Source of the DNA: a virus
Lineage: Duplodnaviria > Heunggongvirae > Uroviricota > Caudoviricetes
Length of the DNA stretch: 35,745 bases
Virus record (IMG/VR): IMGVR_UViG_2548876857_000008
Direction: 5' to 3' (one strand)
Both the position numbers and the translations under genes were made by a program. The notes under the pieces were generated by a model that was not told the origin of the DNA, did no database searches, and was given only the letters and a program-made list of their open reading frames with translations. Shown here one piece after another: positions 20 to 35,745 of this stretch (its first letter is position 1; each line of letters opens with the position of its first letter).

Positions 20-400
20 TCACTTCCGGGGTGATTTTACTGCTTCAGGTTCATCAATGATAGAGAATAATGGGAGCTGTCGGCGGGCGCTTTCAGAACG
101 CTGGATCTTTTTCACCACTTTGTAGATCCACTGCAAAGTCAGGTTGTACTTCTTCGCCAGTTCGCGGTAGTTGCGTCCATCACACTCCTGCCAGATTTTA
201 TAGTCCCGCGCCGATGTCATGAAGACCATGCCTTTGGGCAGGTAAATGGTTTGTCCGCCCCATGCCTGCATCATGTGATTAGCCACAGCGACGGCAATCT
301 GTTCAGCGATATCATCTTCCATTCCAACCATTTCTTTCAATGTGTTTGCGACGTGGTGCGCAAGGTCAGCAAAGATTTCTGGCTGTTGCGGTTCTTTCAT
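20..400 (-). CDS. mor: Mor/C-family transcriptional activator (middle operon regulator-like)
   Basis: Conserved Mor-like blocks GGQTIYLPKG and IWQECDGRNYRELAKKYNLTLQWIYKVVKK. ATG at 400 overlaps the upstream stop (ATGA) and follows a GGGAGGGG ribosome-binding site; the ORF-track start at 427 has none. Confidence 0.8.
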   Translation of the reverse strand: MKEPQQPEIFADLAHHVANTLKEMVGMEDDIAEQIAVAVANHMMQAWGGQTIYLPKGMVFMTSARDYKIWQECDGRNYRELAKKYNLTLQWIYKVVKKIQRSESARRQLPLFSIIDEPEAVKSPRK

Positions 401-801
401 CTTCCCCTCCCGACACGTGCCAGCCATTTTTTCAGTTGTTCAATCACCTGGCTGGCCTGCTGATTGTTAAGCCACTCCAGCCGGGCGACGCCTGTCTGGC
501 GTTGTACGAACTTATTTAACGCCGACAAACTGCCATCTCTGACCGTACCGCTGGAAGTCAGTTCCTGCCATAACGCGCGGATCATCGCAGACTGCTTATC
601 ATAGGAAGGAGGCTCTTTAGATGTGACTTTGAAGCCCTGTTTTTTCATCACAGCGAAAGCCTTAGCCAGTTGTGAGTCGCTCATTACCCGTAACGATTCA
701 CTGCCGCAGTGTGTTTTAAGTAATTGTCGATACGTAGCCTCATCCAGTCGCAGCTCTCGCCGGGCAACATGGATAACCCGCAATAATTGTGCTCTGTTCA
801 T
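397..801 (-). CDS. gemA: GemA / Mu gp16-like early regulatory protein
   Basis: 134 aa directly upstream of Mor, as in Mu. Basic N-terminus (MNRAQLLRVIHVARRELRLDEATYRQLL) resembles the gp16/GemA family. GGAGG precedes the ATG at 801. Confidence 0.6.
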   Translation of the reverse strand: MNRAQLLRVIHVARRELRLDEATYRQLLKTHCGSESLRVMSDSQLAKAFAVMKKQGFKVTSKEPPSYDKQSAMIRALWQELTSSGTVRDGSLSALNKFVQRQTGVARLEWLNNQQASQVIEQLKKWLARVGRGR

Positions 802-6848: not shown

Positions 6849-7084
6849 GCATGCATCTCCAGTGGTTGGACATGGCGGCTGATGTAGTGGTCAGAACAGG
6901 TGATGTTGCCTGGATCGTCCGGGCCGTTCAGCCCGGCAAACTCATCAACCAGAAATACGCTATATGCGGATAATCCCTGCTGACGCGGAACGCGGCGAAT
7001 AAACGTGCCGTGGTATGGAGTTGATTGGCCAAATGAGGGCGTAATCAGTACGCGCTGGCTGGGGGTTAAATCGGTAGGTTTCAT
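6845..7084 (-). CDS. hypothetical early protein
   Basis: 79 aa with AAGGAG 6 nt before the ATG at 7084. Confidence 0.45.
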   Translation of the reverse strand: MKPTDLTPSQRVLITPSFGQSTPYHGTFIRRVPRQQGLSAYSVFLVDEFAGLNGPDDPGNITCSDHYISRHVQPLEMHA

Positions 7085-7094
7085 TGCGCTCTCC

Positions 7095-7331
7095 TTAGTT
7101 AGGTTCGTGCAGGATGCCCGGCACGATCTCTTTGCCGATGGTGCGGGACAGCTCTTTCAGAATGCGAAACGTCAGCCGTCCACGCGGCAAATCCTGTTTA
7201 CCCGCCCAGCGATCAACAGCTTGCGTAACCGTCCGGGGTTCGTAGCCGGTACTGATGGCGAACTGGCGAAAGTTGCTGCCCTGCTCAATCAGTCGCGCGT
7301 GGATTTGGTGTTTGTTCATTAGTTTGTTCAT
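7095..7331 (-). CDS. ner: Ner/Nlp-family DNA-binding regulator
   Basis: 78 aa, first gene of the leftward early operon and divergent from the repressor. FRQFAISTGYEPRTVTQAVDR resembles the Ner/Nlp HTH. GAGGG precedes the ATG. Confidence 0.8.
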   Translation of the reverse strand: MNKLMNKHQIHARLIEQGSNFRQFAISTGYEPRTVTQAVDRWAGKQDLPRGRLTFRILKELSRTIGKEIVPGILHEPN

Positions 7332-7412
7332 TTGTTCCCTCTGAGCTATTATGTACTCAATTGGGTTTATTGTACGTACTCAAACGGGCAAGTCAACGAC
7401 TAATATGCACAA
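7332..7412. promoter_or_regulatory. divergent early/repressor control region with repeated GTAC-core elements
   Basis: 81-bp gap between divergent ner and repressor starts. GTACTCAA occurs at 7353-7360 and 7376-7383, with TGTAC at 7352 and 7371. A TAATAT -10-like hexamer lies at 7401-7406. Confidence 0.45.
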
Positions 7413-7823
7413 ATGAACATAAAAGAAAGACTCAAAAAAATACTCGCTGACAAAGCGTTATCAATCACTGATGCTGCCGCACAGTGCGATATCCCATATC
7501 GTTCTCTACAAAACTATCTGCGTGGCGAGCGAGAACCAAATGCGGAGGCATTGATCTCAATAGGTACCCATTTGGGTATAAATATTGATTGGCTGCTCAC
7601 CGGCAGAGGAGGAATGTATCTGTCTGAACATGCGGATGTTTTGACTGAGCAGCCGGAATACAGCCATGCCGATTTGAAGTTACTGGAATTTTTGAATCAG
7701 TTGGAACCGGATGTACGAAAGGATTTGTTACGCAGTGCTGAAGAAAAACAGCGAGTGGCCGCCCTAGAAAAAAGATTAGAGGAATTGGCTTTAGAACTCG
7801 AAAGCCTAAAACGTTCGGCGTAA
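7413..7823 (+). CDS. XRE-family HTH repressor (c/cI-like)
   Basis: N-terminal HTH (LSITDAAAQCDIPYRSLQNYLRGEREPNAEALISIGTHLGINIDWLL) and coiled-coil C-terminus. Divergent from ner. No S24 peptidase domain. Confidence 0.7.
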   Translation: MNIKERLKKILADKALSITDAAAQCDIPYRSLQNYLRGEREPNAEALISIGTHLGINIDWLLTGRGGMYLSEHADVLTEQPEYSHADLKLLEFLNQLEPDVRKDLLRSAEEKQRVAALEKRLEELALELESLKRSA

Positions 7824-8460: not shown

Positions 8461-9492
8461 ATGCCAGCAAATGAACCTGCAAATGCAATCGTTGTAAATC
8501 ATGTGGTTATTCACCTTTTAGATAAAGAGCCGCATGGGGTGACATCCTTACAGCTTAGCCCAGCAGAGAGTGGCGTCACCGCAGCATCACAACGCTTAAT
8601 AGATGATATCTGTGGGAAATATGCAGGGCGAATGGGGAAAGGTTATGGCCATTTTGAAGATGACCCTGACAATTACCCGATGCAAACAATCGTATCAGAC
8701 TATTTAGCTCAAGAGCATCCTGATGATTTTTACCGTAGCTCCTGCCGCATGATTCGTCATCTGGAATCTCGGATTCAAACAACACCACTCGCTACTGGTG
8801 GCTATGTTCTATTCGCCCACATTACGATGAATCAACACGAGCATATTTTAGTTGCCATGTTAAGCCCCACGACGGGAACTGCGGTTAACGATGCCTTTGC
8901 TATCCAGGAAAGTGTCTACCTTGATATCGACAAGCTACGTGTGGCGGGGCGTATTGACATTACGTCCTGGCAATCAGGTGCCGAACGTTATATAAGTTTC
9001 CTGAAAGGGAGCAATGCTGTATCTGGTTACTTTAAGCAGTTCCTGGGCTGTAACGATGTTTTGATCGCCAAGCGTGAAACAGAGAAATTGCGGGATGCGT
9101 TGAAAGAGTTTGCGACTGAGCAAGGGCTTGACCCCGCACGTCGAGAGGCTTTTCTGCAAACGGCCCATGACCATTTGAAGCAACTGAGCAAAGATGGTGA
9201 GCCTGTAGATCTGACAACCTTTGTGAACGCAGTCTGGCCACAAGAACCAGAACTGCTATCGACTAAGCTGGCCAACCAAGAACTGGAACTGTCGGATGGT
9301 TTTGTCCCAGATGGACGCGTACTAAAAGGAATCATTTCCTTTAAAGGAAAGTCCAATCATTGGGAGCTAAAGTTTGATCGTGCTGGTCTTCAAGATGGTT
9401 CAATTGAGTATAATCGTGATCAGGATGTAATCATTCTAAGGAATATTCCTGATAGCTTCAGAGAAGAGATACTGGATGAGGTTGAGGAGTGA
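8461..9492 (+). CDS. NdpA/YejK-like nucleoid-associated protein homolog (NA37 family)
   Basis: GGYVLFAHITMNQHEHILVAMLS and YISFLKGSNAVSGYFKQFLGC closely parallel E. coli YejK ([23 protein letters not shown] and [23 protein letters not shown]). Length is about the same. The track start at 8410 is GTG; ATG at 8461. Confidence 0.7.
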   Translation: MPANEPANAIVVNHVVIHLLDKEPHGVTSLQLSPAESGVTAASQRLIDDICGKYAGRMGKGYGHFEDDPDNYPMQTIVSDYLAQEHPDDFYRSSCRMIRHLESRIQTTPLATGGYVLFAHITMNQHEHILVAMLSPTTGTAVNDAFAIQESVYLDIDKLRVAGRIDITSWQSGAERYISFLKGSNAVSGYFKQFLGCNDVLIAKRETEKLRDALKEFATEQGLDPARREAFLQTAHDHLKQLSKDGEPVDLTTFVNAVWPQEPELLSTKLANQELELSDGFVPDGRVLKGIISFKGKSNHWELKFDRAGLQDGSIEYNRDQDVIILRNIPDSFREEILDEVEE

Positions 9493-10697: not shown

Positions 10698-10758
10698 ACC
10701 CCTTTAAAAGCCTTCCTGCCTACCATTCCGCACACTGCCTCCATCACCCAATGGAGGC
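10693..10758 (+). promoter_or_regulatory. candidate late promoter element (dyad motif plus start-site hairpin) before the lysis genes
   Basis: CTTAAACCCCTTTAAAAGCC at 10693-10712. Perfect 8-bp hairpin GCCTCCAT/ATGGAGGC at 10737-10758 contains the GGAGG site and the first ATG. Confidence 0.45.
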
Positions 10759-17963: not shown

Positions 17964-18011
17964 GCCATTTCTCCGCGCCGGGCGGATGCCCGGCTTCACC
18001 GCCCAACCTGC

Positions 18012-18142
18012 TTTATAAAGATTTATAAAGCCCTTTACGCCCCGATTTTTACCTTCTCTTTCCCCGCAGTGATTAAAGCGCTTTAAAAGCGATTTTCGCC
18101 CGTTTTTATAAAGCTATTCCCTGACGTACTACGGAGGGAATA
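18012..18142 (+). promoter_or_regulatory. candidate late promoter region for the head operon: repeated TTTATAAAG / TTAAAGCGCTTTAA motifs plus start-site hairpin
   Basis: TTTATAAAG at 18012-18020, 18022-18030 and 18106-18114. Palindrome TTAAAGCGCTTTAA at 18073-18086. 8-bp hairpin TATTCCCT/AGGGAATA at 18115-18142 ends in the ATG. This is a 178-bp gap inside an otherwise coupled late region. Confidence 0.5.
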
Positions 18143-21428: not shown

Positions 21429-21655
21429 AATTTATTTACCGCGGCCCGGCCAGCGGCGTGACGTTAGCCGATGGCGCAGAAGTGCTGCTCTGGCCAGAGC
21501 ATGAGGTGGAACTGCCGGAAGATCTGGACTATGTGCAGACGCTGCTGGCGCTGAAGCATCTCACACCAGCGCCAGTTGAACCCGAAGTGGTGCCTGAACC
21601 TGAACCACAACCCCTGAAGGGTAAAAAAGAGAAGGAGACAACCAGTGGCAGCTAA
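21425..21655 (+). CDS. hypothetical small protein (Mu gp38 position)
   Basis: 76 aa with a Pro/Glu-rich C-terminus. Confidence 0.45.
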   Translation: MKFIYRGPASGVTLADGAEVLLWPEHEVELPEDLDYVQTLLALKHLTPAPVEPEVVPEPEPQPLKGKKEKETTSGS

Positions 21656-23589: not shown

Positions 23590-23660
23590 CATTAAAGCTG
23601 TTTAATACTGTTTGTTTCATCCCTCCTCAATACTGTCCTCAGTTCAACACTGAGGACAGT
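23590..23660 (+). promoter_or_regulatory. inter-operon element: CATTAAAGCTGTTTAATACTG motif plus perfect 12-bp hairpin before the tail chaperone gene
   Basis: Motif at 23590-23610. Hairpin ACTGTCCTCAGT-TCAAC-ACTGAGGACAGT at 23632-23660 holds the GAGGA site in its 3' arm, 4 nt before the ATG at 23665. No U-tract follows. Confidence 0.5.
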
Positions 23661-23664
23661 CACC

Positions 23665-28270: not shown

Positions 28271-29358
28271 ATGCCGTTATCACCCCCGTTTTCACCCTGT
28301 TTTACGGGCAGAAAGATATCACTCACGATATTGCTCCTTTTGTCCTGAGCGTGACGTATACCGACAGTCTCAAGAGCGAATCGGATGAAATCGACGTGCA
28401 GGTGGAAGACACCGCCGGGCGCTGGCGCGAGGCGTGGTATCCGGGCAAAGGCGATATGCTGATGCTGAAGTTGGGCTATCAGGGCGAAGCGTTGCTGGAC
28501 TGTGGAGCGTTCTCCATCGATGAGATTGAGCTGGGCGCACCGCCGGATACGGTATCCATTCGCGGCGTGGCGACGTCGGTCAACAGCGCTCTGCGTACCG
28601 CCTCCAGCGAGGGCTACGAAGAGACGACGCTGGATGCGATTGCCAGCCGTATCGCGCAGAAGCATGGTCTGAAGCTGGTCGGTCAGATAGAGCCGATTAC
28701 CATTGACCGGGTGACGCAATACGCGGAAACCGACGTCGGTTTTCTGAAGCGGCTGGCGGGTGAGTATGGTTATGCGCTGAAAGTCACCACTGGCGAGCTG
28801 GTGTTTTCCCATCTGGCTACACTGCGAAGTAACGCGCCGGTGACGACGCTGACGCCGCAGGATGTAGCGCGCTGGTCGCTGCGCGATACCATCAACCGCA
28901 TCTATAAGGATGCAAAGGTGGCGCATCAGAAGAGTAAAGAGAAGACGCTGGTGACGTACCACGCCGACGGCCCGCCGACCACGGAGACGCGTGGTAAATC
29001 GACCAGCGCCGATACGCTCAAGGTCAATGCACGGGCGGCGGATCAGGGGACGGCGCAGGTGAAAGCCGAGGCGGCGCTGGATGACCATAACGAGTATCAG
29101 CAGACCGGTTCGCTCTCGATGATGGGCAACACGCAGCTTATCGCCGGGAACAAAATCACTCTCGACGGGTTCGGCGTGCTCTCCGGGGAGTGGCTGATCA
29201 CCAGCGCCCGTCACTCGTTTGACCGTTCATCGGGCTACAGCACCGAAATTGAGGTCGGACGTGGCCCGAAAACGGCCTCCGGCGGCGGGAAGAAGAAAAA
29301 ACCGGATACGCTGACCGTCTATCACCCGGACGGCCCACCCACCCAGGAGAAAAAATGA
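28258..29358 (+). CDS. baseplate hub protein (P2 gpD / Mu P-like)
   Basis: 366 aa at the Mu P position; GTG start overlaps the upstream gene. Confidence 0.65.
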   Translation: MAQVNAVITPVFTLFYGQKDITHDIAPFVLSVTYTDSLKSESDEIDVQVEDTAGRWREAWYPGKGDMLMLKLGYQGEALLDCGAFSIDEIELGAPPDTVSIRGVATSVNSALRTASSEGYEETTLDAIASRIAQKHGLKLVGQIEPITIDRVTQYAETDVGFLKRLAGEYGYALKVTTGELVFSHLATLRSNAPVTTLTPQDVARWSLRDTINRIYKDAKVAHQKSKEKTLVTYHADGPPTTETRGKSTSADTLKVNARAADQGTAQVKAEAALDDHNEYQQTGSLSMMGNTQLIAGNKITLDGFGVLSGEWLITSARHSFDRSSGYSTEIEVGRGPKTASGGGKKKKPDTLTVYHPDGPPTQEKK

Positions 29359-31358: not shown

Positions 31359-32070
31359 GTTACCGCTTCAACCGCCGCTCGCCGGGGATGAACGCTTTAC
31401 CCGGCTGGCAAATCTTGCCGCTGAACGCTTCGCACAACTCGATCTGACCGCGCTTCTGATTTACCTGGTGGATCTGGTGGATGCCACGGCGCTGCCGTCG
31501 CTGGCAGAACAGTTCCACGTTCAGGGGCTGGAAGGCTGGCTGTTTGCCCGCGATGAGCGACAAAAGCGCGATCTGATCAAGCAGGCCATTGAGCTGCACC
31601 GCTATCGCGGTACGCCGTGGGCAGTGCGTCAGGTACTGAAGATTCTGGCGTTGGACGGCGATATCAGCGAGTGGTTTGAGTATGGCGGTAAGCCGTACTT
31701 TTTCCGCATGGATGTCACGCTTGAGACGCGCGGGCTGACTGAGGATGAATTTAACGCGCTGATTGTGCTGATCCATGAGTACAAGAACGTCCGCTCAAAG
31801 CTGGAGATGCTGACTATCTGGCTGATTAACCAGAGCCAGATCCCGGTTATCGCCAGTGCTGTTCAGGGCGGCGAGATTGCTACCGTTCTGCCGTGGATTG
31901 CGGAGAGCGTGAGTCAGTCGTCTGCGGTTTATCTGGCGACGGAGTGTTTGAGTGCAGAGGTGGTAACGGTGTTGCCTCCGCTGCATGGCAATGTTGAGCA
32001 GACCAGCGTTATGAGTGTTGGAGCGGGCTGCTGGAGTATTGAGTTTGTCACTGTTTACCCGGAGGAGTAA
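31351..32070 (+). CDS. tail protein (P2 gpI / Mu gp48-like)
   Basis: 239 aa between baseplate J and the tail fibre. Confidence 0.65.
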   Translation: MDKLPLQPPLAGDERFTRLANLAAERFAQLDLTALLIYLVDLVDATALPSLAEQFHVQGLEGWLFARDERQKRDLIKQAIELHRYRGTPWAVRQVLKILALDGDISEWFEYGGKPYFFRMDVTLETRGLTEDEFNALIVLIHEYKNVRSKLEMLTIWLINQSQIPVIASAVQGGEIATVLPWIAESVSQSSAVYLATECLSAEVVTVLPPLHGNVEQTSVMSVGAGCWSIEFVTVYPEE

Positions 32071-33770
32071 TGGCGAGTGAATTTTTTACCATTTTAACCG
32101 CCGCTGGCCGCGCGAAGATTGCTGCGGCGCTGGCGGAACAAAAGCAGATAGTGCTGCAAACAATGGTCGTTGGCGACGGCGGCGGGCAGTATGCCGAACC
32201 GAAAGAGAGCCAGACAAAGGTGGTGCGTGAAGTCTGGCGCGGGTCACTGAATACGCTGAAAATCGCCCCGGAAAACCCGGCGTGGGTGATTGCCGAGGCG
32301 GTACTGCCGGAAGCGAAAGGCGGCTGGTATATCCGCGAGGTGGGATTGCTGGATATGGACGGCGTGCTGATTGCCATCGGCAAGTTCCCGGAAACCTATA
32401 AGCCGAAGCTGCCTGCCGGGGCCAGTAAGCAAATTGTGATCCGCGCTGTGATGGAAGTGACGAACGCGGCGGCGGTAACGCTGATGGTTGATCCGTCGCT
32501 GGTGATGGCAACGGTAGATTATGTGGACTCCAGTATTGAAGAGCACGAAAGATCACATAATCACCCGGACGCAACGCTGACGCAGAAAGGCTTTACGCAG
32601 CTTAACAGCTCCACCAATAGCACGCTGGAAACGCAGGCAGCAACGCCGAAGGCGGTGAAGGCGGCGATGGATAAGGCGAATGAGGCACTGGAAAAAGCTG
32701 GGGCTGATAAAGCGCATAAACATCTGTGGGCCGATATTACCGGGGTGCCGGATGGGACAACGGCGCAGAAAGGGGTTGTGAAGCTTAATAGCTCAACGAA
32801 CAGTACCAGTACGACGGAGGCTGCGACACCGAGTGCGGTTAAGGCGGCATATGACCTGGCGAATGGTAAGGCGGCGGGGAGCCATAAACATGCCTGGGGC
32901 GATATTACCGGGGTACCGGATGGCACTACGGCGCAAAAAGGGATCGTAAAGCTCAACAGCGCGACGAACAGCACCAGTACTACCGAAGCGGCCACGCCCG
33001 GCGCAGTGAAGGCGGCGTATGACCTGGCGAACGGGAAAGCGGCTTCCAGCCATACTCACGCATGGAGTCAGATTACCGGCGTACCGGATGCAACTACAGC
33101 GCAAAAAGGGGTTGTGAAGCTTAATAGCGCGACGAACAGTACCAGTACGACTGAAGCCGCAACGCCGAGCGCGGTTAAGGCGGCGTATGACAAGGCGAAT
33201 ACAGCAATCTCCAGTTTTGCTCTTTTCACGTCGAATGGGACGTTTACGGTGCCAGTCGGGGTAACGAAAGTGATGGTGGAAATGATTGGAGGTGGAGGTG
33301 GTGGCGGCGGCGGTGGTGTGGGTGGTGGTGAGCGAATTGGTTATCCGACAGCAGGTAAACCATCACTTTTTGTTCAAGGGATTGTTGCTGTGAACTCTGG
33401 ACAAAATGTAACCGTCACAGTCGGCGGAGGCGGTGTTGGGGGATCATCAAAAGTAGATACTGGTGGTGGTTCGATGACCGGGAGTAATGGGTACGCCGGA
33501 GGAAACTCAATTTTCTTAACGCTCACTTCTGTTGGTGGTAGCGGCGGCGGCGGTGCATTGCCAGATTCTGGTCCTGGCAACGCATTAAATGAGCCAGGTT
33601 CTGATTCAACGCATGGCTATGGCGGGGGGACTAAGTATAACTCGCAGAAAAATGCCGTAGGTTATGGTTCGAGTGGTGCGGCTGGTACCTCTAAAGGCGT
33701 CAGAACTGTTGAAGGGGACTCTACAGCAGGTGGCAATGGTGCTTCAGGTTTTGTCAGAATATGGTGGTAA
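32070..33770 (+). CDS. tail fibre protein with internal tandem repeats and poly-Gly tract
   Basis: N-terminus resembles P2 gpH / Mu S fibre N-domains. Four tandem repeats of about 56 aa at 32580-33200; Gly run at 33290-33328. Confidence 0.8.
   Translation: MASEFFTILTAAGRAKIAAALAEQKQIVLQTMVVGDGGGQYAEPKESQTKVVREVWRGSLNTLKIAPENPAWVIAEAVLPEAKGGWYIREVGLLDMDGVLIAIGKFPETYKPKLPAGASKQIVIRAVMEVTNAAAVTLMVDPSLVMATVDYVDSSIEEHERSHNHPDATLTQKGFTQLNSSTNSTLETQAATPKAVKAAMDKANEALEKAGADKAHKHLWADITGVPDGTTAQKGVVKLNSSTNSTSTTEAATPSAVKAAYDLANGKAAGSHKHAWGDITGVPDGTTAQKGIVKLNSATNSTSTTEAATPGAVKAAYDLANGKAASSHTHAWSQITGVPDATTAQKGVVKLNSATNSTSTTEAATPSAVKAAYDKANTAISSFALFTSNGTFTVPVGVTKVMVEMIGGGGGGGGGGVGGGERIGYPTAGKPSLFVQGIVAVNSGQNVTVTVGGGGVGGSSKVDTGGGSMTGSNGYAGGNSIFLTLTSVGGSGGGGALPDSGPGNALNEPGSDSTHGYGGGTKYNSQKNAVGYGSSGAAGTSKGVRTVEGDSTAGGNGASGFVRIWW
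32580..33200 (+). repeat. four in-frame tandem repeats (about 168-183 bp) inside the tail-fibre gene
   Basis: Repeated unit TAQKGVVKLNS(A/S)TNSTSTTEAATP(S/G)AVKAAYDLANGKAA(G/S)SH(K/T)HAWGDITGVPDG, with units starting near 32580, 32763, 32931 and 33099. Confidence 0.85.
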
Positions 33771-33773
33771 CAC

Positions 33774-34376
33774 ATGAAATATGCGTATTTTGAACCCTCA
33801 TCAATGAAGGTTTTAGACTGGCTGGATACCGAACAATTATCCTTTGTTTTGCCTGACAGTGTTGTTTCGGTAACTGATGAGCAATGGTGTTATCGTGATC
33901 GTGAATGCTGGGTCAATATTTCAACCACAGAAATCATCACAACACCTCCACCCGGTGATTTTTATCGGCTTGATGGTGATAAGTGGGTGTATGACGCAAC
34001 CAGCTATACTGCTGCGCTAGACGGTGCTAAGTCACTAGTTGTTAAGGCAATCAAGGCGCTACGCGATGAAGTCACTGCCGATTATATCATTATCGGCGAC
34101 TATCACTTTCACAGCGATGCCAGCAGTCGTATCCAGCAAATGTCACTCACCAGGATGGGGCAAACGAAGCAAATCCCCAAAGGCTTAATGTGGCAGACCA
34201 AAAACCTCGGACTTCTCGAGCTAACCAATGAAATCGCGGCGCAGTTTGAGTCCATTACAATGGATCACGATATGCGCCTCTTTGCCAATGCCCAGCGACA
34301 TATTGCCGCCGTTGAGGCGCTGGAAGATATCCTGGCAGTTCAGGAGTATGACTACTCTACGGGGTGGCAACCATGA
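33774..34376 (+). CDS. putative tail fibre assembly chaperone
   Basis: 200 aa immediately after the fibre gene; AT-richer than the structural genes. Confidence 0.5.
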   Translation: MKYAYFEPSSMKVLDWLDTEQLSFVLPDSVVSVTDEQWCYRDRECWVNISTTEIITTPPPGDFYRLDGDKWVYDATSYTAALDGAKSLVVKAIKALRDEVTADYIIIGDYHFHSDASSRIQQMSLTRMGQTKQIPKGLMWQTKNLGLLELTNEIAAQFESITMDHDMRLFANAQRHIAAVEALEDILAVQEYDYSTGWQP

Positions 34377-34825
34377 AGCCGGTGTATCTGGCGTTCTATA
34401 AAGGGCGAGCCGATCATCATGGGTTCGCACGTCTTTCCGACTGGCTGACGCGGCTGGTGACGCGGGGTGAGTATTCTCACTGCGAGCTGGCTGTTGACCA
34501 GGGTAACGGCGAGTTTCTTTGTTATTCGTCGTCGATGCGTGACAAGGGGGTGCGCTGTAAGCAAATGCCGCTGCCACTCGATAAATGGGATCTTATCGCG
34601 CTAAATGCGCTACCAACCAGTGTGGAGCAGTTCTTCCGTCGAAACGACGCCATGAAATATGACTGGCTGGGGGCTGTGGGATTCGTTGTTTTTAATCGTG
34701 GACGGGAGAACAAATATTTCTGTAGCGAGTTTTGCGCAGATTTTCTTGGACTGGTCGATAGCTGGCGTTATTCACCCAATATGCTCCACGCGCTGGCCAG
34801 CAGTATTCAGACTATGAAGTTATAA
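34373..34825 (+). CDS. hypothetical protein with conserved His/Cys residues
   Basis: About 150 aa; GGGGTGG precedes the ATG at 34373. Contains YSHCEL and YFCSEFC. Confidence 0.5.
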   Translation: MKPVYLAFYKGRADHHGFARLSDWLTRLVTRGEYSHCELAVDQGNGEFLCYSSSMRDKGVRCKQMPLPLDKWDLIALNALPTSVEQFFRRNDAMKYDWLGAVGFVVFNRGRENKYFCSEFCADFLGLVDSWRYSPNMLHALASSIQTMKL

Positions 34826-34909
34826 GGGAAACAGCGACCAGAGTCAGGCGGTCACCTGACTCTGACCAGCTAACCCGCAGGAAGTGTCTGCGAGCCGCCC
34901 AGGGCTGCC

Positions 34910-34925
34910 ACTGATGGCCATCAGT
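34910..34925. promoter_or_regulatory. perfect 16-bp palindrome ACTGATGGCCATCAGT upstream of the methyltransferase gene
   Basis: Exact dyad 47 bp before the ATG at 34972; a 10-bp stem-loop lies further upstream at 34839-34864. Confidence 0.3.
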
Positions 34926-34971
34926 CCAATAAGCCTAACAGTTTTTCACATACTGAAAAAGGTTTGCAGAA

Positions 34972-35745
34972 ATGAAAACATTACCCATTATTCCGTGGCC
35001 CGGCGGTAAGCGTCGTCTGGCCAAAAAGTTATTACCGTTATTTCCTGAGCACCAGTGTTATGTAGAGCCATTCTGCGGCGGTGCAGCCTTGTATTTCATG
35101 AAGGAGCCGGTTGAAGCTGAAGTCCTGAACGATATCAACGGCGAACTGGTGAATCTGTACCGTGTGGTTAAAAATCATCTTGAAGAGTTTGTGCGCCAGT
35201 TCAAGTGGGCGTTGAGCAGCAGGCAGATTTTTGAATGGTCGAAAATGACCATCCCGGAGACGCTAACTGATATTCAGCGTGCAGCGCGGTTTTATTATCT
35301 CCAGAAGCAATCATTCGGAGGGAAAGTGGAATCACAGACGTATGGAACGGCGACCACTTCTGCACCACGGCTTAATCTGCTAAGGCTGGAAGAGGAGTTG
35401 AGCGCCGCCCATTTGCGGCTATCACGCACGTTTGTAGAACATTTACCGTGGCGTACCTGCATTGAGAAGTATGATCGCCCGCACACACTGTTCTATTGCG
35501 ATCCCCCGTATTGGGGAACGGAGGGCTACGGTGTTGAATTTGGACTGGAGCAGTACACCCAACTTGCAGAGTTGGCCAGAACGATAAAAGGCAGGATGTT
35601 GATCAGTGTGAACGATATCCCGGAGATGCGTGAAACCTTTGCGGACTTGTCGATTGATACGGTAGATATTCGCTATACGTTGAGCGGTGGGCCTAATGCT
35701 AATCGCTCGAAAGTCAGCCGTGAGCTGGTCATTCGTAACTGGTAA
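34972..35745 (+). CDS. DNA N6-adenine methyltransferase, Dam-like (D12 class)
   Basis: N-terminal PWPGGKRRL (AdoMet-binding motif I) and catalytic DPPY (CDPPYWGTEGYG). Complete ORF; its TAA ends at the window edge. Confidence 0.85.
   Translation: MKTLPIIPWPGGKRRLAKKLLPLFPEHQCYVEPFCGGAALYFMKEPVEAEVLNDINGELVNLYRVVKNHLEEFVRQFKWALSSRQIFEWSKMTIPETLTDIQRAARFYYLQKQSFGGKVESQTYGTATTSAPRLNLLRLEEELSAAHLRLSRTFVEHLPWRTCIEKYDRPHTLFYCDPPYWGTEGYGVEFGLEQYTQLAELARTIKGRMLISVNDIPEMRETFADLSIDTVDIRYTLSGGPNANRSKVSRELVIRNW

What the first reader, a model, noticed from the sequence alone, without database searches (positions are those of the whole stretch)
34839..35745. Terminal Dam-class methyltransferase with an upstream 16-bp palindrome
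A methyltransferase with no partner nuclease, at the right end where Mu carries mom, is consistent with self-methylation to evade host restriction or to regulate packaging or transcription. The perfect palindrome ACTGATGGCCATCAGT at 34910-34925 and the stem-loop CAGAGTCAGG-CGGTCA-CCTGACTCTG at 34839-34864 look like a dedicated control region. A small ORF overlapping the methyltransferase start has only one Cys and so is not a Com-like zinc finger.
Basis: partly seen in the sequence, partly recalled or inferred. Interest (0 to 1): 0.45.

Follow-up and report, generated by a model that had tools for sequence, protein, structure and literature searches.

The report
Methyltransferase swapped into a mom slot
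The last gene of this Mu-like E. coli prophage is a lone adenine DNA methyltransferase that has replaced the usual com-mom anti-restriction genes exactly at their start codon and kept their conserved control region, which is a small variation on an arrangement already described in other Mu-like phages.

Summary
ORF 34972-35745 is a full-length Dam-family (D12) N6-adenine methyltransferase with intact FxGxG and DPPY motifs.

The window is a BcepMu-like transposable prophage of E. coli, with Mor, GemA, a MuB-like ATPase and an rve transposase. The methyltransferase is its last gene, 85 bp from the true right end.

A sister prophage (about 90% identical) has the same 146-bp upstream region followed by com and mom. 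Similarity stops at the ATG, so com-mom and the methyltransferase are alternative cargos of one control region. Com is absent here.

The upstream region is as conserved as the flanking genes. A Salmonella copy changes the palindrome centre GGCC to GCGC and stays symmetric. Distant com-mom loci carry different perfect palindromes at the same position.

I infer an operator for a phage-encoded dimeric regulator that drives late expression for anti-restriction. The binder, the transcription start and the methylation target are not established. GATC specificity is not supported. A methyltransferase in place of mom is already known (FluMu, Pnm1, B3). Verdict: a new member of a known kind, of modest interest.

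The parts
34972..35745 (+). Orphan Dam-family (D12, alpha-class) N6-adenine DNA methyltransferase, 257 aa. FxGxG motif (FCGGAA) at 35071-35088 and DPPY at 35500-35511. It is the last gene of the prophage.
   Evidence: Terminal position.
34910..34925 (.). Perfect 16-bp palindrome ACTGATGGCCATCAGT, a candidate operator for a dimeric DNA-binding regulator. Its centre lies 54.5 nt upstream of the ATG.
   Evidence: Identical in E. coli A35 and L016. In Salmonella L089 it is ACTGATGCGCATCAGT, still perfectly symmetric. Other perfect palindromes occupy the same position upstream of com in distant loci. It is unique within the window.
34839..34864 (+). Hairpin 1, a 10-bp stem with a 6-nt loop, starting 14 nt after the stop of the upstream gene. 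No T-run follows, so it is not a canonical intrinsic terminator.
   Evidence: Variation sits mainly in the loop, with one compensatory pair and two mismatches among four relatives. Distant lineages have a hairpin of different sequence at this place.
34876..34892 (+). Hairpin 2, CGCAGG-AAGTG-TCTGCG. The stem is conserved (one G-U pair in the window) and the loop is variable.
   Evidence: The equivalent hairpin in high-GC com-mom loci has four different stems that all pair, by my inspection.
34936..34941 (+). TAACAG, the conserved 'TAnCAG' box 17.5-19.5 nt downstream of the palindrome centre in several lineages. One candidate -10 element; it would put the palindrome centre near -30.
   Evidence: Alignments, with distances counted by hand. 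No sigma-70 consensus promoter was detected.
34942..34960 (+). AT-rich dyad TTTTTCA-CATAC-TGAAAAA. It contains a T5 run and an alternative -10 candidate, CATACT (34949-34954), which would put the palindrome centre at -43.5, the geometry of the C site at Mu Pmom. It overlaps the Shine-Dalgarno AAAAAGG (34956-34962).
   Evidence: Mu comparison. The segment is absent from lineages L112-L117.
34884..35009 (+). Small 41-codon ORF overlapping the methyltransferase start. Probably not a gene.
   Evidence: No family match and one Cys. Its frame corresponds to the N-terminal extension of the annotated Com in E. coli A35, upstream of the likely true start MTDKMHVRC.
34373..34825 (+). Upstream neighbour, a 150-aa protein of unknown function (PHROG 1128). 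It marks the left boundary of the cargo module. In P2-like prophages its homologue is directly followed by a related D12 methyltransferase.
20..427 (-). The only Mor/C-family transcription activator in the window, and a candidate regulator of the control region by analogy with Mu C at Pmom.
   Evidence: Pfam PF08765, E 1.7e-39. No second family member in the window.

Best explanation
The window is a BcepMu-like transposable prophage of E. coli. Its rightmost gene is an orphan Dam-family N6-adenine methyltransferase occupying the 'mom slot'. In a sister prophage the same 146-bp upstream region drives com-mom. Here the methyltransferase ORF begins at the position of the com start codon, so one cargo has replaced the other by recombination at the ATG. 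The replacement kept the transcriptional control region and ribosome-binding site and removed the Com translational checkpoint.

Shown:
- the identity of the enzyme and its intact catalytic motifs;
- its terminal position;
- the precise swap;
- conservation of the control region.

Inferred:
- the spacer-less palindrome is an operator for a phage-encoded dimeric regulator, most simply the single Mor/C-family activator, by analogy with C at Mu Pmom;
- the gene is therefore switched on late in lytic growth;
- methylation of progeny DNA protects it from restriction in the next host, as Mom and the FluMu/Pnm1 methyltransferases do.

The methylation target is unknown and is probably not simply GATC.
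For: Enzyme: PF02086, E 1.5e-28. TIGR00571 above its cut-off. PDB Dam and DpnM hits. DPPY and FxGxG motifs present.

Phage type: Mor, GemA, DUF3164, an AAA ATPase and an rve transposase. The identical gene lies next to different host genes in four assemblies, with a common 85-bp right end.

Swap: E. coli A35 and OkiPb01694 prophages are about 90% identical over 82% of the first 25 kb. They match window 34061-34975 at 88% and stop matching at the ATG. Beyond that point they encode Com (CxxC...CxxC) and a Mom-family protein.

Control region under selection:
- Its nucleotide identity is 86-91%, against 81-86% for the upstream ORF and 88-89% for the methyltransferase gene.
- Substitutions fall in loops and in the palindrome centre.
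- GGCC to GCGC keeps the palindrome symmetric.
- The region is deleted together with the cargo in Lelliottia.

Positional conservation: 12 of the 16 non-Mu-type distinct com upstream regions, besides A35-type L018, have a 10-18-bp perfect palindrome centred 48-76 nt before the first zinc-finger codon. The Mu-type regions have GATC clusters instead (alignments).

Geometry: if CATACT is the -10, the palindrome spans about -51 to -36 and a T-run precedes the -10, as at Mu Pmom.

Precedent: Mu-like prophages with an m6A methyltransferase in place of mom (PMC3299994).
Against: - No sigma-70-like promoter was detected, and the transcription start is unknown. The two candidate -10 elements give incompatible geometries. 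CATACT would leave only an 11-12-nt leader, and that segment is missing in lineages L112-L117.
- The palindrome has no second copy in the phage. Mu C acts at four late promoters, so a shared late activator is not indicated. The intergenic region upstream of the head genes instead carries a cluster of CTTTATAAAG-type motifs, and a similar CCTTTAAAAGCC lies upstream of ORF 10751.
- Within the four close relatives, covariation statistics are weak (44/500 shuffles).
- A homologue in Burkholderia phage phi1026b is reported as expressed in the lysogen (PMC2920897). Related methyltransferases also sit in moron slots of P2-like prophages. Expression may therefore not be strictly late.
- No activity or specificity data exist for this enzyme subfamily, as far as I could find.
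Confidence: 0.55

Rival explanations
1. The dyads act as RNA, not DNA. The intergenic region is transcribed as part of the tail-operon transcript. Its hairpins, together with pairings that cover the Shine-Dalgarno sequence, control stability, processing or translation of the cargo gene. The 'palindrome' is then simply a third hairpin.
For: The 150-nt region folds better than its shuffles (-53.2 kcal/mol, z = -3.3). The predicted fold pairs 34887-34896 with the GGUUUGCAGA next to the start codon. An alternative AAGCCU/AGGUUU pairing would cover the SD (my inspection). Hairpins 1 and 2 keep their structure with different sequences in distant lineages. The window's hairpin 2 has a G-U pair. No consensus promoter was found. 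L112-L114 have a hairpin plus T-run just before com.
Against: The third dyad is always a spacer-less, perfectly self-complementary palindrome, centre included: GGCC, GCGC, GATC, GTAC, CGCG, TCGA. An RNA hairpin does not need a self-complementary loop, whereas a symmetric DNA site does. Hairpin 1 shows A-C and A-A mismatches in close relatives. No Rfam family matches.
Confidence: 0.2
2. The methyltransferase is a lysogeny-expressed moron. It methylates the host chromosome, for epigenetic effects or to protect the lysogen and prophage, rather than acting as a late anti-restriction function.
For: A homologue in phi1026b is listed among genes expressed in a lysogen (PMC2920897). Homologues at 71% identity sit in a P2-like accessory slot between the tail-fibre and sheath genes. 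Com, the extra safety lock used for toxic Mom, is absent. GC content is lower than in the structural genes.
Against: The gene inherited the complete control region of com-mom, a function that is late and tightly repressed in Mu (PMC3299994). The FluMu/Pnm1 methyltransferases in the mom slot were silent in lysogens.
Confidence: 0.15
3. It is a true GATC Dam. The phage uses it like T4, T1 or P1 Dam, to keep replicating DNA fully GATC-methylated for mismatch-repair avoidance, packaging or gene regulation.
For: Dam-family membership. The best solved relatives, DpnM and EcoDam, both methylate GATC. GATC is not strongly avoided in the phage (111 observed, 136 expected).
Against: The E. coli Dam equivalog scores 70.9 against a cut-off of 441. 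In the phmmer alignment EcoDam K9, L122, R124 and P134 align to P, K, E and S (the roles of these residues are from memory). The FGGKVE hairpin segment is family-specific. The host already has Dam. There is no GATC in the control region, so no Dam/OxyR-type switch as in Mu.
Confidence: 0.1

Closest known systems
Phage Mu com-mom operon and its Pmom control region
   Same: It is the last transcription unit before the right end. It carries an anti-restriction DNA-modification cargo. A dyad-symmetric element lies upstream of a weak promoter with a T-run. The phage encodes a Mor/C-family activator. A sister prophage carries com-mom itself behind this control region.
   Different: There is no Mom and no Com in the window. 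There is no GATC cluster, so no Dam/OxyR switch. The dyad is a spacer-less palindrome, not TTAT-N6-ATAA, and it is unique in the genome. The modification would be N6-methylation rather than methylcarbamoylation.
Hin1523 / Nma1821 / Hia5 methyltransferases of FluMu, Pnm1 and the H. influenzae biogroup aegyptius Mu-like prophage (Drozdz et al. 2012, PMC3299994)
   Same: An m6A methyltransferase with a DPPY motif occupies the mom position of a Mu-like prophage, with a presumed anti-restriction role.
   Different: Those genes keep an upstream com. They belong to a subfamily in which B3 ORF48, a 65% relative of the present enzyme, was not found among the 1000 closest sequences. Their near non-specific activity has been shown; nothing is known for this enzyme.
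Pseudomonas phage B3 ORF47 (Com) - ORF48 (DNA adenine methyltransferase)
   Same: Same methyltransferase subfamily (65.5% identity) in a transposable phage.
   Different: In B3 the methyltransferase overlaps a preceding com and lies among the tail genes, not at the end. Its activity is untested according to PMC3299994.
Shewanella phage vB_SspS_MuM16-1 p50 and the E. coli Bcepmuvirus PhiKM methyltransferase
   Same: Same subfamily (about 65% and 71% identity) in Mu-like or BcepMu-like phages. In MuM16-1 it is also near the right end.
   Different: In PhiKM the gene lies in the central divergent region next to the early operon. Neither has the control region described here.

Membership tests
Dam family / D12-class N6-adenine DNA methyltransferases (Pfam PF02086, TIGR00571) | Full-length match to the family profile above the curated cut-off | tested here: met
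   PF02086 scores 100.7 bits against 22. TIGR00571 scores 116.5 against 114.85, only just above.
Dam family / D12-class N6-adenine DNA methyltransferases (Pfam PF02086, TIGR00571) | Catalytic motif IV (DPPY) and AdoMet-binding motif I (FxGxG), in alpha-class order | tested here: met
   FCGGAA at aa 34-39 precedes DPPY at aa 177-180.
Dam family / D12-class N6-adenine DNA methyltransferases (Pfam PF02086, TIGR00571) | Methyltransferase activity on DNA adenine | not testable with these tools
   Needs enzymology or methylome sequencing.
GATC-specific Dam (E. coli Dam orthologues) | Match to the E. coli Dam equivalog model | tested here: not met
   NF008152 scores 70.9 bits against a cut-off of 441.
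GATC-specific Dam (E. coli Dam orthologues) | Conservation of GATC-contacting residues of EcoDam (K9, L122, R124, P134; roles recalled from Horton et al. 2006) | tested here: inconclusive
   In the phmmer alignment they align to P8, K118, E120 and S130. The alignment in this hairpin region is uncertain.
Mu-type mom operon | Mom (acyltransferase-fold modification enzyme) as cargo | tested here: not met
   The window's cargo is a D12 methyltransferase. Mom is present only in the sister prophage.
Mu-type mom operon | Com zinc-finger translational activator upstream of, and overlapping, the cargo | tested here: not met
   No CxxC...CxxC ORF exists. The only overlapping ORF has one Cys and no family match.
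Mu-type mom operon | Position as the last unit before the right end of a transposable phage | tested here: met
   85 bp separate the stop codon from the point where four insertions diverge. Mu comparison.
Mu-type mom operon | Upstream GATC cluster (Dam/OxyR control) | tested here: not met
   There is no GATC between 34590 and 35472. Mu-type relatives have 2-3.
Mu-type mom operon | Dyad-symmetric site for a Mor/C-family activator upstream of a weak promoter | tested here: inconclusive
   A conserved palindrome and a Mor-family gene are both present. Binding, the transcription start and dependence are untested, and the site is not repeated at other promoters.
Hia5/Hin1523/Nma1821-type methyltransferases replacing mom | m6A methyltransferase at the mom position of a Mu-like prophage | tested here: met
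Hia5/Hin1523/Nma1821-type methyltransferases replacing mom | Sequence membership in the Hia5 subfamily and retention of com | tested here: not met
   com is absent. Subfamily membership was not tested directly. Indirectly, B3 ORF48 (65% identical to this enzyme) was outside the top 1000 Hia5 relatives (PMC3299994).

The most novel reading that the evidence does not exclude
The 146-bp region may be a previously undescribed, modular 'expression socket' of BcepMu-like phages. It would consist of two structured elements plus a lineage-specific, spacer-less palindromic operator in front of a weak promoter. Alternative anti-restriction cargos (com-mom, mom alone, or an orphan methyltransferase) would be plugged in exactly at the start codon. 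Its operator would be read by a dedicated regulator that is not the general late activator.
Probability: 0.25. Interest if true: 0.5.

Novelty: new member of a known kind. Interest (0 to 1): 0.3.

Why it matters
It gives a clean natural example of two unrelated DNA-modification strategies exchanged as cassettes behind one conserved control region. One is Mom-type methylcarbamoylation (the chemistry named in the RefSeq product annotation of the sister prophage) and the other is N6-methylation. In this case the Com translational lock was lost.

The enzyme belongs to a very large prophage-borne Dam-family subgroup. More than 7,600 sequences match at E below 1e-40, and members from other genera of Proteobacteria are 71-77% identical. 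I could find no reported specificity for this subgroup. Finding its target would inform how temperate phages of enteric bacteria evade restriction and how to read the methylomes of lysogens.

The palindromic control region is an easily testable candidate operator.

Tried and rejected
- **Other copies of the palindrome in the phage.** There is only one perfect copy. The two 3-mismatch hits (14628, 16412) lie in coding DNA, and nothing with 5 or fewer mismatches lies in a likely promoter region. The idea of a shared late-promoter motif is rejected.
- **Exact 17-mer in IMG/VR.** Apart from this prophage family, it occurs only in two unrelated sequence contexts, which I take to be chance matches, probably within coding DNA.
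- **Searching by the promoter-proximal 20-mer.** This returned the same five contigs.
- **Consensus promoter and terminator scan.** No sigma-70 promoter and no plus-strand terminator at hairpin 1.
- **Rfam.** No match.
- **Deposited phage genomes.** No close relative of the locus. The whole phage matches only about 16% at 77%.
- **Genome-collection scan with the upstream protein.** It found only the Lelliottia relative.
- **Relation to the non-specific methyltransferase M.EcoGII.** Rejected, because it is a beta-class enzyme.
- **Woods et al. 2002 on phiE125 gp27 (66% relative).** The paper is not held in the library.
- **Resemblance to host factor sites, by eye.** CTG-N8-CAG does not fit the E. 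coli LexA box spacing (CTG-N10-CAG). CTGAT-N4-ATCAG matches 8 of 10 positions of the FNR consensus TTGAT-N4-ATCAA. Other lineages carry unrelated palindromes, which argues against a conserved host factor. This lead was not pursued.
- **Covariation test on the four close relatives.** Too little divergence to be decisive.
- **Second Mor/C paralogue.** None in the window.

Full report
**What is there.**
- ORF 34972..35745 (257 aa) stops on the last base of the window.
- It matches Pfam PF02086 (D12-class N6-adenine methyltransferase) along its length (E 1.5e-28).
- It matches NCBIfam TIGR00571 'dam' just above its cut-off, PHROG 56, and the solved structures of DpnM and E. coli Dam (E about 1e-15).
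- Motif I (FCGGAA, aa 34-39) and motif IV (DPPY, aa 177-180) are intact.
- The 16-bp palindrome (34910-34925) and the 10-bp-stem hairpin (34839-34864) are exact.

On chance alone they are unremarkable. The window has four unrelated perfect 16-bp palindromes against 0.75 expected.

**The element and the host.** The window encodes a Mor-family activator (20..427), GemA, DUF3164, a MuB-like ATPase and an rve transposase on the minus strand. It also encodes a repressor-like HTH protein and head and tail genes on the plus strand.
- The exact methyltransferase protein is on record as 'DNA adenine methylase [Escherichia coli]' in over 200 contigs. Close variants occur in Salmonella and E. albertii.
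- In four assemblies the gene is followed by different host genes.
- Those four loci share 85 bp beyond the stop codon, ending ...GATTTATCGCGCGCGGCTTTA, and then diverge.

This is a transposable, BcepMu-like prophage, and the methyltransferase is its last gene. Deposited phage genomes contain only distant relatives (about 16% at 77%).

**The key comparison.** Two complete E. coli genomes (A35, OkiPb01694) carry a prophage about 90% identical over 82% of the first 25 kb.
- At the right end they match window 34061-34975 at 88%, and similarity stops at the methyltransferase ATG.
- Downstream they encode a Com-family zinc-finger protein and a Mom-family protein, followed by host grxA.
- The alignment shows the same 146-bp upstream region, with the palindrome identical. 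The likely true com start (ATG ACA GAC..., MTDKMHVRCTQC...) sits where the window has ATG AAA ACA... of the methyltransferase.

com-mom and the methyltransferase are therefore alternative cargos behind one control region and ribosome-binding site.
- A Lelliottia relative lacks both the control region and any cargo. The upstream gene is followed after 28 nt by a window-type right end.
- The direction of the swap is inferred. Distant com-mom loci have upstream regions with recognisable sequence similarity. Homologous methyltransferases in P2-like prophages are instead fused directly to the upstream 150-aa gene with no intergenic region. The control region therefore looks native to com-mom.

**The control region.** Among four variants (window, L016, Salmonella L089, A35) the non-coding region is 86-91% identical. 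The upstream ORF is 81-86% identical and the methyltransferase gene 88-89%. It contains four dyads:
- hairpin 1 (34839-34864);
- hairpin 2 (34876-34892);
- the palindrome (34910-34925);
- an AT-rich dyad (34942-34960) next to the Shine-Dalgarno sequence.

Substitutions fall mainly in the loops, in the four bases after the palindrome, and at the palindrome centre. There, Salmonella has GCGC instead of GGCC, which keeps perfect symmetry. With only four close sequences the formal covariation test is weak (44/500 shuffles).

Wider sampling helps. Besides A35-type L018, 12 of the 16 non-Mu-type distinct regions upstream of com have a 10-18-bp spacer-less palindrome centred 48-76 nt before the first zinc-finger codon. 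Examples are CCCTGATCAGGG, CCTGTACAGG, CTCTCGCGAGAG, CCGCCCGTCGACGGGCGG and CACCAGCGCTGGTG. Mu-type regions instead have GATC clusters and the TTAT-N6-ATAA C site. Lineages L112-L117 align with the window through conserved blocks (GCAG-N7-CTGCRAGCC..., AGCCTA, TTTGCAGA-ATG), with different hairpin 1 and palindrome sequences at the same places.

**Mechanism.** A palindrome that is always self-complementary through its centre, changes sequence between lineages and keeps its position is best explained as an operator for a dimeric DNA-binding protein encoded by the phage.
- By analogy with C at Mu Pmom, the single Mor-family protein is the simplest candidate. If CATACT (34949-34954) is the -10, the palindrome spans about -51 to -36 with a T-run before the -10, much as in Mu.
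- Against this, no consensus promoter is detected.
- The more widely conserved TAnCAG box (34936-34941) would place the palindrome near -30.
- The palindrome is unique in the phage. The intergenic region upstream of the head genes instead carries a cluster of CTTTATAAAG-type motifs, and a similar CCTTTAAAAGCC lies upstream of ORF 10751.

The binder and the start site remain open. An RNA-level role for the hairpins, including possible masking of the Shine-Dalgarno sequence, is a serious rival for hairpins 1 and 2 but fits the palindrome poorly. Because the palindrome is maintained in the Com-less variants, Com is not its ligand.

**The enzyme.** It belongs to a very large subfamily: more than 7,600 sequences at E below 1e-40, with members from other genera of Proteobacteria 71-77% identical. 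The subfamily includes B3 ORF48 (65%), phiE125 gp27 (66%), PhiKM (71%) and MuM16-1 (65%).
- It is not an orthologue of E. coli Dam (equivalog score 70.9 against 441).
- The residues I recall as reading GATC in EcoDam are not conserved in the alignment.
- GATC specificity is therefore unproven and would be redundant in a dam-plus host. The target is unknown.
- An anti-restriction role is inferred from the slot it occupies and from Drozdz et al. 2012 (PMC3299994).
- Expression in lysogens, as reported for a phi1026b homologue (PMC2920897), is a rival.

**Comparison with what is known, and verdict.** A DNA adenine methyltransferase in place of mom is established for FluMu, Pnm1 and the H. influenzae biogroup aegyptius prophage. 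B3 pairs com with a methyltransferase of the present subfamily. This locus differs in three ways: it lacks Com, the methyltransferase is joined precisely to the com translation start, and the control region is of the non-Mu, palindrome type without GATC sites. This is a new member of a known kind, with a modestly interesting and testable regulatory region.

Noticed in passing
window 34373-34825; L091 2501-3714; L094 2501-3699: The 150-aa upstream protein (PHROG 1128, annotated 'enoyl-CoA hydratase-like', no Pfam match) forms a conserved pair with a D12 methyltransferase in P2-like prophages. There the two ORFs overlap, and they lie between the tail-fibre assembly and sheath genes.
   Followed up: partly
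L008 3950-4080 (Lelliottia wanjuensis): A related prophage lacks both the control region and any cargo gene. Its right end starts with ...AACAGGTAAAGTG, resembling the last codons of the methyltransferase plus the window-type end. This suggests a deletion derivative.
   Followed up: partly
L001 4854-5111 (E. coli A35): The RefSeq 'Com family' CDS (85 aa) starts at the ATG inside the palindrome. The true start is probably 19 codons downstream (MTDKMHVRCTQC...), behind the AAAAAGG ribosome-binding site.
   Followed up: partly
L019, L045, L055, L061, L063 (IMG/VR loci): Some mom homologues have no com gene upstream. One (L019, 80% identical to the A35 Mom) follows a GC-rich hairpin, and the others follow a GATC-rich region.
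   Followed up: no
window 9335-9350, 21486-21501, 28727-28742: Three further perfect 16-bp palindromes, unrelated in sequence to the one at 34910 (TTTCCTTTAAAGGAAA, TGCTCTGGCCAGAGCA, AAACCGACGTCGGTTT). That makes four in all, against about 0.75 expected.
   Followed up: no
window 17964-18141 and 10698-10750: The intergenic region upstream of the head genes has a hairpin and a cluster of CTTTATAAAG / TTAAAGCGCTTTAA palindromes (10 motif hits in the window against 2.4 expected). A similar CCTTTAAAAGCC lies upstream of ORF 10751. These may be late-promoter elements.
   Followed up: partly
window 23633-23661: A hairpin with a 12-bp stem (ACTGTCCTCAGT-TCAAC-ACTGAGGACAGT) lies between the tail tube gene and the next ORF.
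   Followed up: no
window 7323-7823: A repressor-like HTH protein (7413..7823) is preceded by direct repeats (TTATGTACTCAA / TTGTACGTACTCAA) that look like operators. ORF 7005..7322 has no family match and may not be a gene.
   Followed up: no
window 32070-33770: The tail-fibre protein contains three to four tandem repeats of about 38 aa (TAQKG.VKLNS.TNSTS..EAATP.AVKAAYDLANGKA) and a glycine-rich C-terminal part.
   Followed up: no
L010 2405-3259 (Escherichia phage PhiKM): In another E. coli Bcepmuvirus, a methyltransferase of the same subfamily (71% identity) lies in the central divergent region next to the early operon rather than at the right end.
   Followed up: no
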